64,000 bases of DNA from a virus: positions 101,610-165,609 of the IMG/VR virus record IMGVR_UViG_3300025168_000034. One strand, 5' to 3'. Numbering within the stretch: the first letter of the stretch is position 1; each line of letters begins with the position of its first letter. Below, one piece after another: positions 1 to 58,788 of the stretch. A model generated the notes under the pieces. It did not search any database and was not told the origin of the DNA. It worked only from the letters and a program-made list of their open reading frames with translations. Made by a program: the position numbers and the translations under genes.

Positions 1-591
1 TATTAGTGAATGGATTCTAGTGTGTTTGTTGTTGTTATTTGAATTGGTGTTTTCGTTTAAAGATGAATTCATAAAAGCACCTTGTGTAGATGGATTACTG
101 ACCAAATCCCAACATACGATTTCAAAGTCGTCTTGTACTTCTACCTTTCCCTCTCCTAACTCCTTAACAGATCCCATTCCTCTTGAGCTGATGCCTAATC
201 TGATTCCAGATTTCATTAACTCCTTTGCAATGTTTCCTGAGGGTGTAGATAATATCTCAATCTTTCCCATTAAGTCAGTCCCTTGCCACCACAAATCAAG
301 TACATTGTGAGACACGTTTGATAGGTTTACCACTTGAGAATCTGGATGATCTAATTCGCCTAACGCTCTACGCTCCTTTACAAAAGTGTTTTTGTAAGTT
401 TCACATTCTTTTTTCAAAATAGGTAAAGGATAGCTCCTTCCATTTTGGTTAAAGTTTTCATCATCGCCAGTACTGGCTCTCTGCATAATTCCTGACACGA
501 TTAGCTTTCCATTGTTTTTGTTCATGGATTCGTTGATCTGTGTAGGTGTTACTTGGATTGATCCTATATAATCTACTAATACTCTTTTCAT
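1..591 (-). CDS. gp21: Prohead core protease (T4 gp21-like), 3' end runs off window
   Basis: Not in the ORF track. Manual translation from ATG at 591: MKRVLVDYIGSIQVTPTQINESMN...NQNGRSYP...RALGELDHPDSQVVNLSNVSH...STPSGNIAKELMKSGIRLGISSRGMGSV...DFEIVCWDLVSNPSTQGAF. The GELDHP and GISSRGxGS motifs are gp21 hallmarks. ATGA overlap with the upstream ORF. Confidence 0.95.
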   Translation of the reverse strand, partial: MKRVLVDYIGSIQVTPTQINESMNKNNGKLIVSGIMQRASTGDDENFNQNGRSYPLPILKKECETYKNTFVKERRALGELDHPDSQVVNLSNVSHNVLDLWWQGTDLMGKIEILSTPSGNIAKELMKSGIRLGISSRGMGSVKELGEGKVEVQDDFEIVCWDLVSNPSTQGAFMNSSLNENTNSNNNNKHTRIHSLI

Positions 592-4075: not shown

Positions 4076-4083
4076 TATAAATA
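4076..4083 (-). promoter_or_regulatory. Late promoter motif TATTTATA (representative of 14 copies)
   Basis: TATTTAT(A/T) 3-25 nt upstream of starts; copies begin at 2194, 4076, 5655, 9094, 12667, 16797, 25303, 27239, 31943, 41753, 49942, 54581, 57400, 63205. Confidence 0.8.
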
Positions 4084-4085
4084 GG

Positions 4086-5648: not shown

Positions 5649-6071
5649 CTATTTTATAAATAGTACTAGAATAGTTGTTAAAATTGCTGCTCCACAACCT
5701 GCTCCTAACCAACGCTGATTGCGTTTAAGTTTTTCATTTTGTCTTTGCAAATCTTCTAGTCCAGTAACATATATGTTGATTTGTTGAGATTGAGCATTAA
5801 CCTGCTTTCTGCATAATATTGATTTTTCTGTGCTATGTTGTATTAGACTATCCTGCTTTGCTATTTTTTCATTAGCTAGCTCTAAAAGCAAGTAAGTGTA
5901 GTCAAACATTTCAACACACTGATCATACTTAATTAGATCTTCTGCTATTTGTTGTGCTGTACTGTATGGTAAAACTACGACAGAATCTTCGTTATTTTGG
6001 GTATCGGTCTGCGAAAAACTGGTCAAGGTCAGTGACAGTAAAACGCTCAATATCATTAAGCTCTTCTTCAT
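5649..6071 (-). CDS. Secreted coiled-coil protein with C-terminal TM helix; putative spanin-like partner
   Basis: Likely start MKKSLMILSVLLSLTLTSFS|Q (signal peptide, Gln+1), coiled coil, C-terminal hydrophobic WLGAGCGAAILTTILVLFIK; overlaps the next ORF. Confidence 0.55.
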   Translation of the reverse strand: MKKSLMILSVLLSLTLTSFSQTDTQNNEDSVVVLPYSTAQQIAEDLIKYDQCVEMFDYTYLLLELANEKIAKQDSLIQHSTEKSILCRKQVNAQSQQINIYVTGLEDLQRQNEKLKRNQRWLGAGCGAAILTTILVLFIK

Positions 6072-12649: not shown

Positions 12650-13189
12650 TTATAAAGAGTCTTTTGTATAAATAGGCTGCGTTTTCACTTTAGCCTTTAA
12701 TTGTGCAACTTCTTTTGTGAGCTGATCAACTCTATCTAGCAGTTTTGTAATCACACTAGATAATGACTTGTGTTTTAAATTTTCATTCTTATATAAGTAA
12801 AGGTCTTCTAGGACTGCACTTCCGTTTACAATTAACTTACACTGATCATACTCACCCTCTATTGTAGATTGTCCGACATAGAATTTTTCCATAACTCGTC
12901 TGGATATTATATCTCTGTTTTCAAGATCTTGTGTGATTGGATTGTAAGCGAGGTAGTGTGAAATAAAGTATATGTTGTCGGATTGAAGTTTAGCATCTGT
13001 GTTAGGTGTGCCTATTCTTACTAGATAGGGATTAGTGTTATGCTTTGCTTTTATGTCAGACACACTCTCTCCATTCCAACTTGTATAAATATTCTTTAAG
13101 CGAATCTTACCCAAAGTTTCTCCAGTTGCTAATCCTTCAATTGGTTTGAAAGGTGTTGTTGTGTTTCTTACTTTATTATTATTTATCAT
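12650..13189 (-). CDS. Hypothetical virion-associated protein with C-terminal coiled coil
   Basis: 179-aa ORF ending in the heptad KLLDRVDQLTKEVAQLKAKV. Confidence 0.55.
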   Translation of the reverse strand: MINNNKVRNTTTPFKPIEGLATGETLGKIRLKNIYTSWNGESVSDIKAKHNTNPYLVRIGTPNTDAKLQSDNIYFISHYLAYNPITQDLENRDIISRRVMEKFYVGQSTIEGEYDQCKLIVNGSAVLEDLYLYKNENLKHKSLSSVITKLLDRVDQLTKEVAQLKAKVKTQPIYTKDSL

Positions 13190-54564: not shown

Positions 54565-54601
54565 TTATGTACGTGTTTATTATAAATAGCTTGGAATATA
54601 A

Positions 54602-55108
54602 TTAAACTTGGAAAATAGAGTCGCTTAATCTTCCTAATCCATCCGGATGATCCATGCCATACCCAAACACCCACTCATCTTGTAGAGTGTATCCGCAAAA
54701 GTCTAGCTCCATTGGACAGTCATGTCTCTTTAATAAAGTTGCTTTGTAAACGTGTTTTGCTCCTCTATCGTAAGCGAGTTTTTCTAAATATGCCATCGTC
54801 TTTCCAGAGTCACAAATATCATCTACCAACCAAACATCCTTATCTGCCAAATTAATATTCCAATCTTTATATAAGTTAATCTCACCTCTAGCTTGACCTT
54901 TATATGACTCAACTCCTACACAATCCACATAAGCGTCGAATAGTAGGTTTTTAGCTACATCCTGAAAGAATGTAATACCTCCTTGCAGGATTGGTGTTAA
55001 TACTGGATACAGTGCTTTTGGTTCGTCTGGATAAAGACCGTTCATTTTTTCTGCCAGCTCTAAAACTTTGTCCTCTATTGCATGAGGACCAAATAATATT
55101 TTTTCCAT
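54602..55108 (-). CDS. hpt: Hypoxanthine phosphoribosyltransferase
   Basis: ILQGG, ESY, PRPP-binding loop LVDDICDSGKT, WVFGYGMD. Confidence 0.9.
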   Translation of the reverse strand: MEKILFGPHAIEDKVLELAEKMNGLYPDEPKALYPVLTPILQGGITFFQDVAKNLLFDAYVDCVGVESYKGQARGEINLYKDWNINLADKDVWLVDDICDSGKTMAYLEKLAYDRGAKHVYKATLLKRHDCPMELDFCGYTLQDEWVFGYGMDHPDGLGRLSDSIFQV

Positions 55109-55114
55109 ACACTT

Positions 55115-55145
55115 AATATACGAAAATTATATTATACTTTCAACT
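55115..55145 (-). promoter_or_regulatory. Putative early/middle promoter AGTTG-N20-TATATT upstream of hpt
   Basis: Bipartite motif with a 20-nt spacer shared by three loci. Confidence 0.6.
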
Positions 55146-55518
55146 TTTTACCCGATGTTTTAAAATTAAGTTTACGCATAACTGTTTTAGATATTAAGTC
55201 CAGTTTTTTGGTTCTAGGATTGAATCTAAGAACAAACGGTACGTTAATATTAGATTCCATATCAGTGATTACAGCCTCTCCACTAGCTCCTAAACTCTTT
55301 ATCTCCTGTCCGTGATCCTCATATGTCTTTGTAAACAGATCCTCAATCTCTTCTGGCTCTATTGATTTACGATTACGTATATCGTTTACTCGATCCATAA
55401 AATGTCTTGTGAATTCTATATCAATTCCAATAGCAGCAAACATCTTATCTAAGTAAGCTTCCACTTCATCTAATTCAGCTTGGTTTACTGATTCTAATAT
55501 TTGTTGTAGCTTAATCAT
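55132..55518 (-). CDS. Putative internal head protein, possible BECR-fold RNase
   Basis: Leader MIKLQQILE; EFTRHFMDRVND...LISKTVMRK pattern. Confidence 0.5.
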   Translation of the reverse strand: MIKLQQILESVNQAELDEVEAYLDKMFAAIGIDIEFTRHFMDRVNDIRNRKSIEPEEIEDLFTKTYEDHGQEIKSLGASGEAVITDMESNINVPFVLRFNPRTKKLDLISKTVMRKLNFKTSGKKLKV

Positions 55519-55519
55519 G

Positions 55520-56518
55520 TTATCCTGGTACATCTTCTTCAAACACTATTCCCTCTCCGGTGAGTGTACCATTAACACTACCTACCTGATCAGTTACTGT
55601 TGTTCCAGTACCTCCATCATTATCACCCATTCTATAATAATGTTGGATAGCTATAAATTGGTTACTATAATCAATGCTAGTAGCATCTGTAGGAACACCA
55701 CTATTATATAAGTTACTTACATCAGATTGAGCCAAAGATCCAGTAAAGTATACAAATTCATCTATATTGCCGTTCATAAAATCACTTGCACCATTACGTG
55801 AACCAATGTGGAATGGTGTTGTGTCATTGGTAGAAGATCCTGGAGTCATGTTGCTGGTATCAAATGATTCCGCGTGTGTCCCATTTGATGATTGTGATAC
55901 ACGACTAATACCATTTACATATATATCCATTCCAGAACTACTAAAATTTCCATTATATGTTACTACCAGATGATACCAACCAAGTGATGCGTTTGGAATA
56001 ATATTACCTCCTCCAGCATTGTCTGATCCACTGTGTACAGCAGATCTTACAGTTAATCCCTTAGGATTGTTGGTGACGGGCTCCCGTCCTTGAATTAAAA
56101 CTTTTACTCCACTAAAACTATCTACAGTTAAACTTAATCCTTTATATTCTACACCTCGACCTGAAGCTACTTTACTAGCAATTCTAACTCCGCTTTCTCC
56201 TGGATTTGAATCATGTTTTACCCATGTACTTATACTAAAAGAACTGGAAGGTGAGATTACCATATTATCACCAAACCCTATAGTACTATCCGCTACATCT
56301 CCATCAAATTTAGCAGAGTAGGTGTTTGTAAAACCACTGGCTGCAGCTGTTCCAGTATTACTACCGTAAGCCTGTAGATGTTGTTGATATCGCAAAAAAG
56401 CCTCTTTCCTTCTTCTTTGATCTTGTTTCTTTTTAGCTTTAAACGCTCCTTCCTCCTGCAACTTTTGTTTTTTTGCTAACTCACGAATATAATCTGCATT
56501 CCTTAGAAAATCTTTCAT
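55520..56518 (-). CDS. LamG/concanavalin-like domain virion protein
   Basis: SFSISTWVK, WYHLVVTY, IYVNG, HIG, MNGNIDEF, YYRMGD. Confidence 0.8.
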   Translation of the reverse strand: MKDFLRNADYIRELAKKQKLQEEGAFKAKKKQDQRRRKEAFLRYQQHLQAYGSNTGTAAASGFTNTYSAKFDGDVADSTIGFGDNMVISPSSSFSISTWVKHDSNPGESGVRIASKVASGRGVEYKGLSLTVDSFSGVKVLIQGREPVTNNPKGLTVRSAVHSGSDNAGGGNIIPNASLGWYHLVVTYNGNFSSSGMDIYVNGISRVSQSSNGTHAESFDTSNMTPGSSTNDTTPFHIGSRNGASDFMNGNIDEFVYFTGSLAQSDVSNLYNSGVPTDATSIDYSNQFIAIQHYYRMGDNDGGTGTTVTDQVGSVNGTLTGEGIVFEEDVPG

Positions 56519-57387
56519 TTATCTGTAGTAGTTTCTATTGTAACTTGTATTTTTGGTTCATATCCTTGTGGTAATTTATTTACCAATCCTTTAAAAGTGG
56601 AGTTGCCAGCATCATGTCTAAACTCAAATTTAAGATTACTAAGATCCATCATCACTTGTGAAGATGTTGTAAATCCAAAACTATTATCTCGTCTATACGG
56701 ATTCATCCACTTATCACTATCATGTTGCTTCGATAGAGCATCCAATACCTGCTCTTGCGATGAAATATCCGACAATGCATCGTAAGCTATTTGTTGCCTA
56801 GACAAAGAAGATTTTCTTTTTAATCCACCCGTATAACCAGTATCAGGATACTCAACTCCATGGTTAGTTCTTGTCACTACTTCATCAGGACCTATTCGCT
56901 TTATTATAGGAACATGTTGTGAAGTCATTTCAATAATATAGCTATGCTTAGCGTTTGATACAATTGTAAGCCCCTTGACCCCAACATCATCTTCATCATC
57001 ACCTCTAAAATTAATCACCGATCTCATAGATTGTGATAATTTAGATTGTTGTAATGCGGTTCTGATTTTTAATCCATCATAAGAAGGCTTACCATTCTTA
57101 CCTTTTTTAGCTTTATCTTTTGCTAAATCTCCCTCTTTTTCATCAAAACCAACCATTAAAGATGCATTTACTACACCAATACCCTTCTCATTTAGACCTT
57201 CACTCCAATCGGTTAAGACGTCTCGCATATAAACCATCTCTATACCATTCACAATTTCGTGCACTACTTCAAGATCTGGAGCATACATTCTATCGCGGTT
57301 CTTTGCCAAAACTACATTGCCATCAACACGGCAGCGCGCAATCACACACTCGTTTAATTCGTGAAGAAGGTTACGTAATTTTATCAT
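56515..57387 (-). CDS. Ntn-hydrolase (C45/NRDE-like) with cleavable leader
   Basis: MIKLRNLLHELNE|CVIA...LAKNRDR, WSEGLNEKGIGVVN, RTNHG, SSLSR, TTSSQVM. Confidence 0.75.
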   Translation of the reverse strand: MIKLRNLLHELNECVIARCRVDGNVVLAKNRDRMYAPDLEVVHEIVNGIEMVYMRDVLTDWSEGLNEKGIGVVNASLMVGFDEKEGDLAKDKAKKGKNGKPSYDGLKIRTALQQSKLSQSMRSVINFRGDDEDDVGVKGLTIVSNAKHSYIIEMTSQHVPIIKRIGPDEVVTRTNHGVEYPDTGYTGGLKRKSSLSRQQIAYDALSDISSQEQVLDALSKQHDSDKWMNPYRRDNSFGFTTSSQVMMDLSNLKFEFRHDAGNSTFKGLVNKLPQGYEPKIQVTIETTTDK

Positions 57388-57412
57388 GACAGGCTTTCTA
57401 ATAAATAGTCAA

Positions 57413-57820
57413 CTATTCTTTAGTTTCCTTATGCTGATCAATCTTTTCTAGTATTTTCTTGAAGAGGTCTGTTTTTATCCATCCACTCAGCGACGCATTC
57501 TTTAATGCGCTAACTATTTGGAAAATTAAAAATGGCACAATAACTGTTTCACTTAACCAAGAGGTTCCTACAAAACTCTTCTCTATAGAAAGGAGTACAC
57601 CTAATATAACCCACCACAAAGCTAAAGTTCTTAAAACTTTTATTGCTTTATATGTTCTAAATCCTTCTCTTTTAACACCTGCTATAACACCAAAAAAGCC
57701 ATCCAATAATACAACACAACCTACTGATAAAAATTGTTCTGCATTATCCATAGCAAGACCTAGGAAGTAAGAACACACAAAGGCGCATGTAGTTGTTATT
57801 GAGATTACTGCAGTTTTCAT
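57413..57820 (-). CDS. Holin (phage holin 4-like)
   Basis: 3-4 TM segments, LDGFFGVIAG, SALKNA; overlaps the endolysin stop. Confidence 0.75.
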   Translation of the reverse strand: MKTAVISITTTCAFVCSYFLGLAMDNAEQFLSVGCVVLLDGFFGVIAGVKREGFRTYKAIKVLRTLALWWVILGVLLSIEKSFVGTSWLSETVIVPFLIFQIVSALKNASLSGWIKTDLFKKILEKIDQHKETKE

Positions 57821-58788
57821 AAAGCTTTAAGCATATCAACTAATTCTAATTGTGGAAAGCAATCAAACTTATCTTTACGAACATTTGTGTGAGTCCATAA
57901 TCCAAATTGCTTTGCATTATAAGCATCTGAGTTAAACTCAAAAGCATCTTTAGGATGTACTCCCTCTTTTAGGAGTTTAGGTAATCCATTAACCAGATCC
58001 ATTTTTGGATAAATGTCTTTAAGATGTAATATAAGCAATCGAAGAGCTTCAATCTGCTTTTCTGTATAAGCATGCCAGTATTGGTGTCCTCTAAACTTAT
58101 AACCTAAATCACAAACAAATTCCGGTTTAACTTCTGTATTAACATATGTGTAATATTTGTCTCCAGAGGTCGAAGGTTTCTTAGTTAGGTATCCAAAGTT
58201 ATTAAGCTCTACTCCTCCAGACATCTTTGAAATTGCAAACTTACCCACTTTACCTAAGTGCCAACCTACGTAATTATTAGGAAAACACTCTACGACAGTT
58301 CCGTCGTATTTAGCTTCTTTACCCTTTACATTAGAACCTCCAATACAGTACTGAGTAGCTACTCTTCCTCGCTTATCCTTGTTCCAGCTGTGTATGGTGT
58401 TGTATGGATTGTCCCAACCAGCAGTGTGATGTATAAAGAATCCTAACGGTTCAATCTTGCCATAATCTCTTACATACTCATCAGAATCCAAATACACCTT
58501 ATCAATCACAAGACCACCTTTAGTTGTGTATGTTCCGTGTTTTGCTAACTTATCATCTTTATCATACGCTGTATCTTCAGCCGTAGTGTCCTTAGTGTTA
58601 TCTGTGTCAATTCCTGCAGCTTCCCATGTTGCTCGACCCACAATTCCATCTGCTACCAAGCCATTTTTCTTTTGCCACTCAACTGTCAACTTCTCTGTAC
58701 CTGCACCAAATATTCCATCTGCTGGCGTACCTATCACCTTCTGCCACTCCTTTACTTCTAAACCTCTACTTCCTTTTTTTAACAACAT
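57817..58788 (-). CDS. Endolysin: PG-binding domain + N-acetylmuramoyl-L-alanine amidase
   Basis: LKKGSRG...DGIFGAGT...DGIVGRATW; IHHTAG, GVEL, THTNV...KFDC. Confidence 0.9.
   Translation of the reverse strand: MLLKKGSRGLEVKEWQKVIGTPADGIFGAGTEKLTVEWQKKNGLVADGIVGRATWEAAGIDTDNTKDTTAEDTAYDKDDKLAKHGTYTTKGGLVIDKVYLDSDEYVRDYGKIEPLGFFIHHTAGWDNPYNTIHSWNKDKRGRVATQYCIGGSNVKGKEAKYDGTVVECFPNNYVGWHLGKVGKFAISKMSGGVELNNFGYLTKKPSTSGDKYYTYVNTEVKPEFVCDLGYKFRGHQYWHAYTEKQIEALRLLILHLKDIYPKMDLVNGLPKLLKEGVHPKDAFEFNSDAYNAKQFGLWTHTNVRKDKFDCFPQLELVDMLKAL

What the first reader, a model, noticed from the sequence alone, without database searches (positions are those of the whole stretch)
56515..57387. Ntn-hydrolase zymogen apparently activated by the prohead protease
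Seen: MIKLRNLLHELNE is followed directly by CVIA...KNRDR (Cys codon at 57346-57348), under a late promoter motif. Known: Ntn-hydrolases need a free N-terminal Cys, and T4 gp21 cleaves after Glu in (I/L)-x-E. Inference: the leader both targets the enzyme into the capsid and keeps it inactive until head maturation, so an active amidase or peptidase is delivered to the next host. Autoprocessing is an alternative.
Basis: partly seen in the sequence, partly recalled or inferred. Interest (0 to 1): 0.82.

Follow-up and report, generated by a model that had tools for sequence, protein, structure and literature searches.

The report
Phage amidase capped by head-protease tag
A 166-kb T4-like marine phage encodes an amide-cutting enzyme whose essential first residue is hidden behind the phage's own capsid-loading tag, and the tag ends in the head protease's cutting motif, so head maturation probably loads the enzyme and switches it on, though no cut has been measured.

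Summary
ORF 56515-57387(-) encodes 290 aa: a 13-residue leader (MIKLRNLLHELNE), then Cys14. The AlphaFold model (pLDDT 87.5) matches Cys-type Ntn hydrolases at Z about 20, and residue 14 aligns with their nucleophile Cys.

Points for cleavage by the head protease:
- [LIV]-x-E precedes the Cys in 110 of 111 close homologues and in every IMG/VR locus that shows the junction.
- The genome has a gp21-like S77 protease, as do all near-complete relatives tested.
- The leader is the phage's own tag, shared by at least 8 unrelated ORFs here. Two other lineages have their own tags.
- A candidate late-promoter motif lies 13 nt upstream.
- A sister clade has [KR]-x-A|C, matching that clade's own recurrent R-V-A motif, so the junction follows the lineage.
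- Met|Cys forms arose at least three times.

Best reading (about 0.58): T4-style capsid cargo, cut at LNE|C by the head protease.

Points against or left open:
- Self-cleavage, the norm for this enzyme class, is not excluded (about 0.27).
- The substrate is unknown.
- Linkage to the lysis genes is only local.

This scan noted the same layout in at least 12 other genomes. I found no paper describing it.

The parts
57401..57408 (-). CTATTTAT motif, candidate late promoter, 13 nt upstream of the ATG
   Evidence: It is the most enriched upstream 7/8-mer in the genome (20 seen, 1.15 expected). It also precedes portal, TerL, the head of the tag array and other ORFs. Promoter function is inferred.
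57349..57387 (-). 13-residue leader MIKLRNLLHELNE. Residues 1-10 are the phage's shared tag, with L-H-E at 8-10. A second site, L-N-E at 11-13, abuts Cys14.
   Evidence: Eight ORFs of the genome carry a similar tag, against about 0.13 for shuffled tags. The layout matches the T4 CTS, where residues 4 and 7 serve targeting and residues 8 and 10 serve processing (PMC9026906).
57346..57348 (-). Cys14 codon, predicted Ntn nucleophile
   Evidence: Cys14 is invariant in alignment A1. Model residue 14 aligns with Cys103 of IAT, Cys126 of NAAA, Cys143 of acid ceramidase, Cys2 of BSH and Cys1 of PVA.
56518..57345 (-). Rest of the mature Ntn-hydrolase domain (residues 15-290). It includes the invariant K29-N30-R31-D32-R33 (57289-57303), N74, N175-H176-G177 and R232.
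   Evidence: AF2 model with pLDDT 87.5 and pTM 0.88. Foldseek and VIA matches to the AAT/NAAA/CBAH folds. Invariant columns.
56515..56517 (-). Stop codon TGA, overlapping the ATG of the next gene (ATGA)
   Evidence: This suggests translational coupling to the LamG-domain ORF 55520-56518.
55132..55518 (-). Downstream ORF of 128 aa that carries the same tag (MIKLQQILE...)
   Evidence: Its ATG at 55518 lies 1 nt after the LamG stop. Its tag scores above the shuffled range. It stays beside the Ntn gene in relatives down to 74% identity.
1..591 (-). gp21-like prohead protease (Peptidase_S77). The ORF is genome 101586-102200, and its last 8 codons lie before the window start.
   Evidence: PF03420 match with E 5.9e-27 and 90.9 bits, over the cut-off. 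ORF and neighbouring head module.

Best explanation
The gene encodes an inactive precursor of a cysteine N-terminal-nucleophile (Ntn) amidohydrolase, and the protein is capsid cargo.

Proposed sequence of events:
1. The gene is expressed late.
2. The first ten or so residues are this phage's version of the T4 capsid targeting sequence. They carry the protein into the scaffolding core of the prohead.
3. The gp21-like S77 protease cuts after Glu in (L/I)-x-E. A cut at L11-N12-E13 frees Cys14.
4. The free alpha-amino group of Cys14 is needed for Ntn catalysis, so the same cut releases the enzyme from the core and activates it.
5. The active enzyme travels in the head and is ejected with the DNA into the next host. 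There it hydrolyses an amide bond of unknown identity.

Shown here: the fold, the nucleophile position, the conserved junction, the shared tag and the co-occurring protease.

Inferred: packaging, who makes the cut, ejection and the substrate.
For: Fold and nucleophile:
- AF2 model with pLDDT 87.5.
- VIA Z 18-21 to CV2077, NAAA, IAT, acid ceramidase and BSH, with residue 14 on their nucleophile Cys.
- Foldseek E down to 6e-9.

Junction:
- P1 is Glu in 110 of 111 and P3 is L/I/V in 102 of 111, while P2 varies.
- The junction is kept with leaders from 4 to about 170 residues.
- This equals the published gp21 motif L/I-X-E (PMC9026906; PMC12991175).

Protease:
- S77 is present in the own genome.
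- It is present in 6 of 6 LxE-class relatives that are at least 90% complete and in phage MA9V-1.
- The four large S77-negative contigs also lack the gp23 capsid gene, so the head module is simply off the fragment.

Tag:
- The leader matches a genome-specific tag on 8 ORFs in G000, 5 in a 291-kb relative and 10 in a 257-kb relative. Shuffled tags give 0 to 0.13.
- 10 of 33 loci have a tagged neighbour within 3 kb.
- The tag differs between lineages and the Ntn leader follows it.

Second site: the other tagged proteins are expected to be cut at the tag's own site near residue 10. The Ntn protein always carries a further (L/I)xE flush against the Cys.

Lineage tracking:
- The sister clade has [KR]-x-[ASG]|C.
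- That clade's polyproteins carry RVA[SA]R[YFHW] 35 times against 0.18 expected. The LxE clade has none.

The leader is dispensable: Met|Cys forms arose at least 3 times.

The own capsid protein has L-K-E55|G at the position where T4 gp23 is cut.
Against: - No virion proteomics or cleavage data exist for any member.
- The nearest characterised relatives (IAT, NAAA, acid ceramidase, PVA) all self-cleave. NCBIfam names the nearest family 'autoproteolytic'.
- Many relatives in S77 phages have leaders of only 4-8 residues and no recognisable targeting tag.
- Met|Cys versions also occur in S77 phages, so packaging is not a general need of the family.
- One cluster, P0018, has Asp at P1. In T4 IPIII, Asp at that position blocks processing.
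- From memory: B. subtilis PurF, another Ntn enzyme, removes a propeptide ending ...E|C without a phage protease.
Confidence: 0.58

Rival explanations
1. The enzyme cleaves itself. The tag may still load the protein into the capsid, but the E13|C14 bond is broken by Cys14, as in other Ntn hydrolases. On this reading, the conserved L/I at P3 and Glu at P1 fit the enzyme's own groove rather than the protease.
For: The closest structural relatives are self-cleaving enzymes: IAT precursor 2x1c, NAAA, acid ceramidase and the PVA precursor. The nearest NCBIfam family is 'C45 family autoproteolytic'. Leaders of 4-8 residues resemble the short propeptides of self-processing relatives. In fused forms the domain sits inside polyproteins, where a self-cut would also separate the domains.
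Against: The junction tripeptide is clade-specific. In each clade it copies that clade's general tag or linker motif, which self-cleavage chemistry does not predict. In the LxE clade it equals the known specificity of the co-encoded protease family. Met|Cys forms show that the fold needs no propeptide.
Confidence: 0.27
2. The enzyme is not cargo. It stays in the producing cell and is switched on late, by leaked head-protease activity or by itself. It then acts on the dying host, for example on the envelope at lysis.
For: The gene lies directly after the endolysin (57817-58788) and holin (57413-57820) genes. T4 gp21 can cut a cytoplasmic host protein at an L-x-E loop (PMC12991175), so a protein outside the capsid with LxE could be processed. 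The short-leader relatives lack a targeting tag.
Against: Linkage to endolysin and holin is found only in relatives of at least 84% identity, 6-7 of 80 loci. The gene has its own promoter-like motif, and its operon holds another tagged ORF. In other lineages the gene sits inside or beside the tag arrays. The protein has no signal peptide.
Confidence: 0.12
3. The match is a coincidence or an annotation artefact: the leader and the LNE|C junction have no role.
For: [LIV]xE fills 1.5% of tripeptides in this proteome, so one case alone could be chance.
Against: The junction is kept in about 160 cluster representatives and all loci examined. The tag match is far above shuffled controls.
Confidence: 0.01

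Closest known systems
Phage T4 internal proteins IPI, IPII, IPIII (and Alt), with the capsid targeting sequence removed by prohead protease gp21
   Same: A short N-terminal tag of about 10 residues is shared by unrelated proteins of one phage. It has hydrophobic residues at positions 4, 7 and 8 and Glu at 10, and it ends in (L/I)xE. A gp21-family S77 protease is encoded in the head module. The genes appear to be expressed late. The cargo genes are diverse and swappable.
   Different: In T4 the cut only releases the cargo. Here a second (L/I)xE lies flush against a catalytic N-terminal Cys, so the cut would also create the active site. The tag sequence is different (MIKLKDILxE against T4's MKTYQEFIAE, the latter from memory). 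Nothing has been measured.
Peptidase C45 / acyl-CoA:isopenicillin N acyltransferase (Pfam PF03417 AAT; NCBIfam NF040521), with the related CBAH/penicillin V acylase, NAAA and acid ceramidase folds
   Same: The same alpha-beta-beta-alpha Ntn fold. The nucleophile Cys is at the start of the first strand. A basic-Asn-x-Asp motif follows about 15-18 residues after the Cys (KNRD here). Further Asn and Arg residues are conserved.
   Different: The sequence scores fall below both curated cut-offs: 20.4 against 23.2 bits for PF03417, and 35 against 85 bits for NF040521. The family is almost entirely viral. Known members self-cleave at Gly|Cys, or after a hydrophobic residue (Phe or Ile) before the Cys. 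This clade has an invariant (L/I)xE|C.
Processed head and ejection proteins of giant phages (phiKZ, 201phi2-1, SPN3US), cut by gp21-related proteases at S/A/G-x-E
   Same: Many internal head proteins, including multi-domain ones, are cut after Glu at short motifs by a diverged gp21 homologue, often at several sites per propeptide (PMC9026906).
   Different: No Ntn hydrolase cargo and no cut that creates an active site has been reported there. The P3 preference is different.
Polyvalent proteins of phages and conjugative elements (Iyer et al. 2017, PMC5512222)
   Same: Relatives of this domain sit in proteins of 500-2800 aa with RNA ligase, CCA-adding-type nucleotidyltransferase, 2H phosphoesterase, HAD, topoisomerase IB and superoxide dismutase domains. 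This is the architecture of packaged, injected effector polyproteins.
   Different: A search of that paper found no mention of 'Ntn', 'N-terminal nucleophile' or 'acylase'. The window protein is a single-domain form.

Membership tests
Cys-type Ntn hydrolase superfamily (C45/AAT, CBAH, NAAA/acid ceramidase) | Four-layer alpha-beta-beta-alpha Ntn fold | tested here: met
   AF2 model with pLDDT 87.5. VIA Z 20.9 to 3gvz_A (rmsd 3.2, 220 residues aligned), Z 20.7 to NAAA 6dy2_B and Z 19.4 to IAT 2x1d_C. Foldseek probability 1.00.
Cys-type Ntn hydrolase superfamily (C45/AAT, CBAH, NAAA/acid ceramidase) | Nucleophile Cys at the first residue of the mature chain, at the start of the first strand | tested here: met
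   Cys14 is invariant. Model residue 14 aligns with IAT residue 103, human NAAA 126, acid ceramidase 143, BSH 2 and PVA 1.
Cys-type Ntn hydrolase superfamily (C45/AAT, CBAH, NAAA/acid ceramidase) | A free alpha-amino group on the nucleophile, made by removing whatever precedes it | not testable with these tools
   The precursor carries 13 residues before Cys14. Their removal is inferred.
Pfam PF03417 (AAT) / NCBIfam NF040521 (C45 autoproteolytic) | Sequence score over the curated cut-off | tested here: not met
   PF03417: 20.4 bits against a cut-off of 23.2. NF040521: 35.1 bits against 85. Some homologues carry a precomputed PF03417 hit. The protein is a distant relative, not a member by the curated score.
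Pfam PF03417 (AAT) / NCBIfam NF040521 (C45 autoproteolytic) | Autoproteolytic maturation | not testable with these tools
   This needs expression of the precursor and a C14A mutant, followed by mass spectrometry.
T4-type CTS-tagged internal head proteins | An N-terminal tag of about 10 residues shared by unrelated proteins of the same phage | tested here: met
   Eight ORFs in G000 score at or above the threshold, against 0.13 for shuffled tags. The same holds, with different tags, in two other lineages.
T4-type CTS-tagged internal head proteins | The tag ends in the protease motif (L/I)-x-E | tested here: met
   L8-H9-E10 and L11-N12-E13. The paralogous tags end in I-L-x-E at residue 10. The motif is as published.
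T4-type CTS-tagged internal head proteins | A gp21-family (S77) prohead protease encoded by the phage | tested here: met
   PF03420 match with 90.9 bits in the head module. The family is also present in all near-complete relatives.
T4-type CTS-tagged internal head proteins | Late expression together with the head genes | tested here: inconclusive
   The CTATTTAT motif is shared with portal, TerL and the head of the tag array. There are no transcription data.
T4-type CTS-tagged internal head proteins | The processed form is present in mature virions and is ejected | not testable with these tools
   The phage is uncultured. The papers on the cultured relative MA9V-1 turned up in a search but were not read for proteomics.

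The most novel reading that the evidence does not exclude
A whole viral family of Ntn hydrolases has handed its activating cut to the capsid maturation protease. On this reading, the three residues before the nucleophile report the head-protease specificity of each phage lineage. They are (L/I)xE in T4-like S77 phages and [KR]xA in uncultured phages estimated from CheckV completeness at about 400 kb, whose polyproteins are punctuated by RVASRY motifs. The Ntn junction would then be both a new way to activate this enzyme class and a built-in readout of cleavage rules in phages that cannot be grown.
Probability: 0.35. Interest if true: 0.78.

Novelty: new variant of a known kind. Interest (0 to 1): 0.62.

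Why it matters
Ntn hydrolases are textbook self-activating enzymes. Activation of one by a separate, virus-encoded protease would be a new mode of control for the class. I did not find it described in the paper library.

It would also extend the T4 capsid-targeting idea from "load and release" to "load, release and arm". It would show that uncultured T4-like phages of marine Bacteroidota pack enzyme kits into their heads.

The family is large: 452 cluster representatives at E <= 0.001. It is almost entirely viral. A cultured member exists, gene MA9V1_182 of Chryseobacterium phage MA9V-1, so the idea can be tested directly.

The substrate is unknown. Finding it could reveal a host molecule that phages need to destroy on entry.

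Tried and rejected
- Sequence searches of solved structures gave nothing useful. With the single protein there were 0 hits. With the family profile there was one chance hit to isocitrate dehydrogenase at E 0.059. The fold search was needed.
- PHROGs has no family for this protein.
- I tried to identify the head protease of the [KR]xA clade. The 8 IMG/VR contigs are only 6-27% complete and show neither S77 nor S78. This is uninformative, so the class-to-protease correlation could be tested only on the LxE side.
- The four large LxE-class contigs without S77 looked like possible counterexamples. They also lack the gp23 capsid gene, so the head module is off the fragment.
- The lysis-cassette reading is weakened, because endolysin and holin adjacency holds only among near-identical relatives.
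- A link to PurF-type Ntn amidotransferases, suggested by the phosphoribosyltransferase gene at 54602-55108 in the same operon, was dropped. The fold matches are to AAT, NAAA and CBAH, and PurF and GlmS are not among the listed matches.
- The BFVD search gave only unnamed viral proteins and NRDE/TANGO2-like proteins of giant viruses.
- The 270-kb relative G009 shows no shared tag.
Full report
**1. What is there**

ORF 56515-57387 on the minus strand encodes 290 residues. They begin MIKLRNLLHELNE, then Cys14, and AKNRDR lies at residues 28-33. Only seven sense codons lie between the upstream stop and the ATG, and none of them is a start. The stop codon overlaps the ATG of the next ORF, a LamG-domain protein at 55520-56518.

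Upstream lie a holin (57413-57820) and an endolysin with PG_binding_1 and Amidase_2 domains (57817-58788).

The window is bases 101610-165609 of a 165,609-bp virus record that CheckV rates 98% complete.

**2. The enzyme**

- Pfam gives only a sub-threshold AAT hit (20.4 bits, cut-off 23.2).
- NCBIfam gives a sub-threshold hit to 'C45 family autoproteolytic acyltransferase/hydrolase' (35 bits, cut-off 85).
- Sequence searches of the PDB find nothing.
- An AlphaFold model built on 48 homologues is confident (pLDDT 87.5, pTM 0.88).
- Foldseek matches Cys-type Ntn hydrolases: isopenicillin N acyltransferase, CV2077, bile salt hydrolases, NAAA, acid ceramidase, TANGO2 and penicillin V acylase.
- In the VIA re-alignment (Z 16-21), model residue 14 pairs with the nucleophile of each: IAT 103, human NAAA 126, acid ceramidase 143, BSH 2 and PVA 1.

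Cys14 and K29-N30-R31-D32-R33 are invariant, as are N74 (nearly invariant), N175-H176-G177 and R232.

The protein is therefore a Cys Ntn hydrolase, distantly related to C45/AAT. By the established mechanism of the class, it cannot work until residues 1-13 are removed.

**3. The junction**

Among 111 close cluster representatives with the junction present:
- P1 is Glu in 110 and Asp in 1.
- P3 is L in 56, I in 40, V in 6, T in 7, M in 1 and S in 1.
- P2 varies.

Every IMG/VR locus that contains the junction shows the same. So does Chryseobacterium phage MA9V-1, with LNE|C.

The motif is kept with leaders of 4 residues (MINE|C), 5 residues (MKLSE|C), 13-28 residues and about 90-170 residues.

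In this proteome [LIV]xE fills 1.5% of tripeptides, so conservation carries the argument, not the single case.

The motif equals the published specificity of T4 gp21, which cuts after Glu in L/I-X-E (PMC9026906; PMC12991175).

**4. The protease**

The genome encodes a Peptidase_S77 (gp21-like) protein (90.9 bits). It lies in a T4-like head module with small core proteins, an acidic scaffold protein and a gp23-like capsid protein, near the portal gene. That capsid protein has L-K-E55|G about 35 residues before its conserved PLIRRV...VQPM block. By my recollection of the gp23 sequence, this is where T4 gp23 is cut (inference).

S77 is present in all six LxE-class relatives that are at least 90% complete, and in many fragments. 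It is also present in MA9V-1.

Four large S77-negative contigs also lack the gp23 gene, so they are not counterexamples.

**5. The leader is the phage's own address tag**

A scan of all six frames of the genome found at least eight ORFs that start with near-identical tags. Examples are MIKLKDILFE, MIKLKDILNE, MIKLNNILLE, MMKLKNILLE and MIKLQQILE. What follows the tags is unrelated: a HAD-like protein, an HD-like protein and several unknowns. Shuffled tags give 0.13 hits on average.

The tag has hydrophobic residues at 4, 7 and 8 and Glu at 10. This is the layout mapped in the T4 IPIII capsid targeting sequence, where residues 4 and 7 serve targeting and residues 8 and 10 serve processing.

Two distant relatives have different tags, and their Ntn leaders follow them:
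- In a 257-kb phage, MNLKDSIKNILRE... on the Ntn protein matches nine neighbours that start MNLQESIRRILRE.
- In a 291-kb phage, MKNLIRSILNE... matches four others.

A third relative of 270 kb showed no shared tag. Within only 3 kb of flank, 10 of 33 distinct leaders have a significantly similar tagged neighbour.

The leader is therefore a general, lineage-specific module and not an Ntn propeptide.

The Ntn proteins differ from the other tagged proteins in one way. After the tag they always have a further (L/I)xE flush against the Cys. Examples are ...LHE|LNE|C here...ILNE|ELHREVIHE|C and ...ILRE|HIELKTLVE|C. The tag's own site is optional in them: 26 of 81 leaders have an extra upstream site.

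**6. Expression**

CTATTTAT(A) is the most enriched word upstream of ORFs (20 seen, 1.15 expected). It lies 4-21 nt before the ATGs of several genes:
- the portal
- the large terminase
- a 757-aa polyprotein
- a fibre-like protein
- the first gene of the tag array
- the Ntn gene (57401-57408)

It is probably this phage's late promoter. That is an inference.

**7. The wider family**

A search of 1.84 billion cluster representatives found 452 relatives at E <= 0.001. The family is almost entirely viral.

The relatives fall into three junction classes:
- [LIV]xE|C
- [KR]x[A/S/G]|C
- Met|Cys

On a tree of 165 domains (161 with a class label) the classes need only 4 changes, against about 63 when the labels are shuffled. 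Met|Cys arose at least three times, from both other classes. It also occurs in S77 phages. The leader is therefore not needed for folding.

The [KR]xA clade sits mostly in proteins of 500-2800 aa. These also carry RNA ligase, CCA-adding-type nucleotidyltransferase, 2H phosphoesterase, HAD, topoisomerase IB and superoxide dismutase domains. This is the architecture of injected polyvalent proteins (PMC5512222), and a term search of that paper found no mention of an Ntn domain.

These proteins carry RVA[SA]R[YFHW] 35 times against 0.18 expected, at N-termini and between domains. The LxE clade has none. R-V-A itself fits [KR]xA. In both clades, then, the tripeptide before the Cys copies that clade's general punctuation motif.

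Fused forms also exist in the LxE clade: tag-HAD-IEE|C-Ntn, and nucleotidyltransferase-...-Ntn.

**8. Weighing the readings**

For cleavage by the head protease:
- The junction tracks the lineage and copies that lineage's general motif.
- In the T4-like clade the junction equals the known specificity of the co-encoded protease.
- The leader is a shared cargo tag, and a second site is kept exactly at the Cys.

For self-cleavage:
- It is the norm for the nearest known enzymes.
- It would explain the 4-8-residue leaders without a tag.
- From memory, B. subtilis PurF removes a propeptide ending ...E|C on its own.
- One cluster has Asp at P1 (P0018). In T4 IPIII, Asp at that position blocks processing.

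For action in the producing cell:
- A preprint shows that gp21 can cut a cytoplasmic host protein at an L-x-E loop, so an enzyme outside the capsid could be timed by the protease.
- However, the link to the lysis genes holds only among relatives of at least 84% identity.
- The operon also contains another tagged ORF.

My weights:
- 0.58 for capsid cargo cut by the protease
- 0.27 for self-cleavage, with or without packaging
- 0.12 for a late enzyme outside the capsid
- 0.01 for chance

**9. What it does**

The substrate is unknown. The fold relatives hydrolyse non-peptide or N-terminal amide bonds in bile salts, penicillins, N-acylethanolamines, ceramides, dipeptides and acyl-CoA-dependent acyl transfer. 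The company the domain keeps in fused forms (RNA-repair and nucleotide enzymes) suggests a role early in the next infection, perhaps against a host defence. This is speculation.

**10. Novelty and earlier notes**

The paper library has nothing on a packaged phage Ntn hydrolase or on an Ntn enzyme armed by a capsid protease.

Within this scan the same layout was noted in at least 12 other genomes, and the tag array of this genome was noted separately. I reproduced the tag array independently.

What this report adds:
- the lineage-specific tags, with shuffled controls, in three genomes
- the two-site arrangement
- the three clade-bound junction classes, with the RVASRY motif
- the weak link to the lysis genes

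Noticed in passing
window 57401-57408, and genome-wide (for example window 4076-4084, 5656-5663, 12668-12675, 54582-54589): CTATTTAT(A) lies 4-21 nt upstream of many ATGs, nearly all on the gene strand. These include portal, TerL, a 757-aa polyprotein and the first gene of the tag array. It is a candidate late promoter that recalls T4's TATAAATA.
   Followed up: partly
window 55132-55542: The mechanical ORF start (TTG at 55542) lies inside the LamG gene. The likely start is the ATG at 55518, 1 nt after the LamG stop, which gives a 128-aa protein carrying the shared tag MIKLQQILE. It hits PHROG 23027 and PHROG 14518 (both of unknown function) and stays beside the Ntn gene in relatives down to 74% identity.
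   Followed up: partly
proteins P0154, P0232, P0148, P0157 (relatives): These are giant proteins of 850-2800 aa. They join the Ntn domain to RNA ligase, CCA-adding-type nucleotidyltransferase, 2H phosphoesterase, HAD 'Swiss army knife', topoisomerase IB and Fe/Mn superoxide dismutase domains. The IMG/VR contigs found with this clade's alignment have CheckV completeness that implies phages of about 400 kb.
   Followed up: partly
proteins of the [KR]xA clade: The motif RVA[SA]R[YFHW] recurs at N-termini, between domains and at C-termini of these polyproteins (35 seen, 0.18 expected). It may be a processing or docking signal. The protease of these phages was not found.
   Followed up: partly
proteins P0070, P0130, P0178, P0216, P0239, P0173, P0195, P0217: A small beta-rich domain with the signature GDxVxxGKFKNKxxxV sits just upstream of the Ntn domain in fused forms of both junction clades. 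P0154 and P0148 gave Pfam DUF5661 hits that probably mark the same domain. Its role is unknown.
   Followed up: no
genome 97172-98803 (L243), outside the window: The gp23-like capsid protein has L-K-E55|G about 35 residues before the conserved PLIRRV...VQPM block. This is the likely maturation site, by analogy with T4 gp23.
   Followed up: no
window 54602-55108: A type I phosphoribosyltransferase gene (Pfam Pribosyltran, E 4e-15) lies downstream on the same strand as the Ntn, LamG and tagged 128-aa genes and may be co-transcribed with them. It stays linked in relatives down to 60% identity.
   Followed up: no
protein P0018: This is the one cluster with Asp instead of Glu before the Cys (LND|C). 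It was seen on 15 contigs. It would be a natural test case for whether P1 Glu is needed.
   Followed up: no
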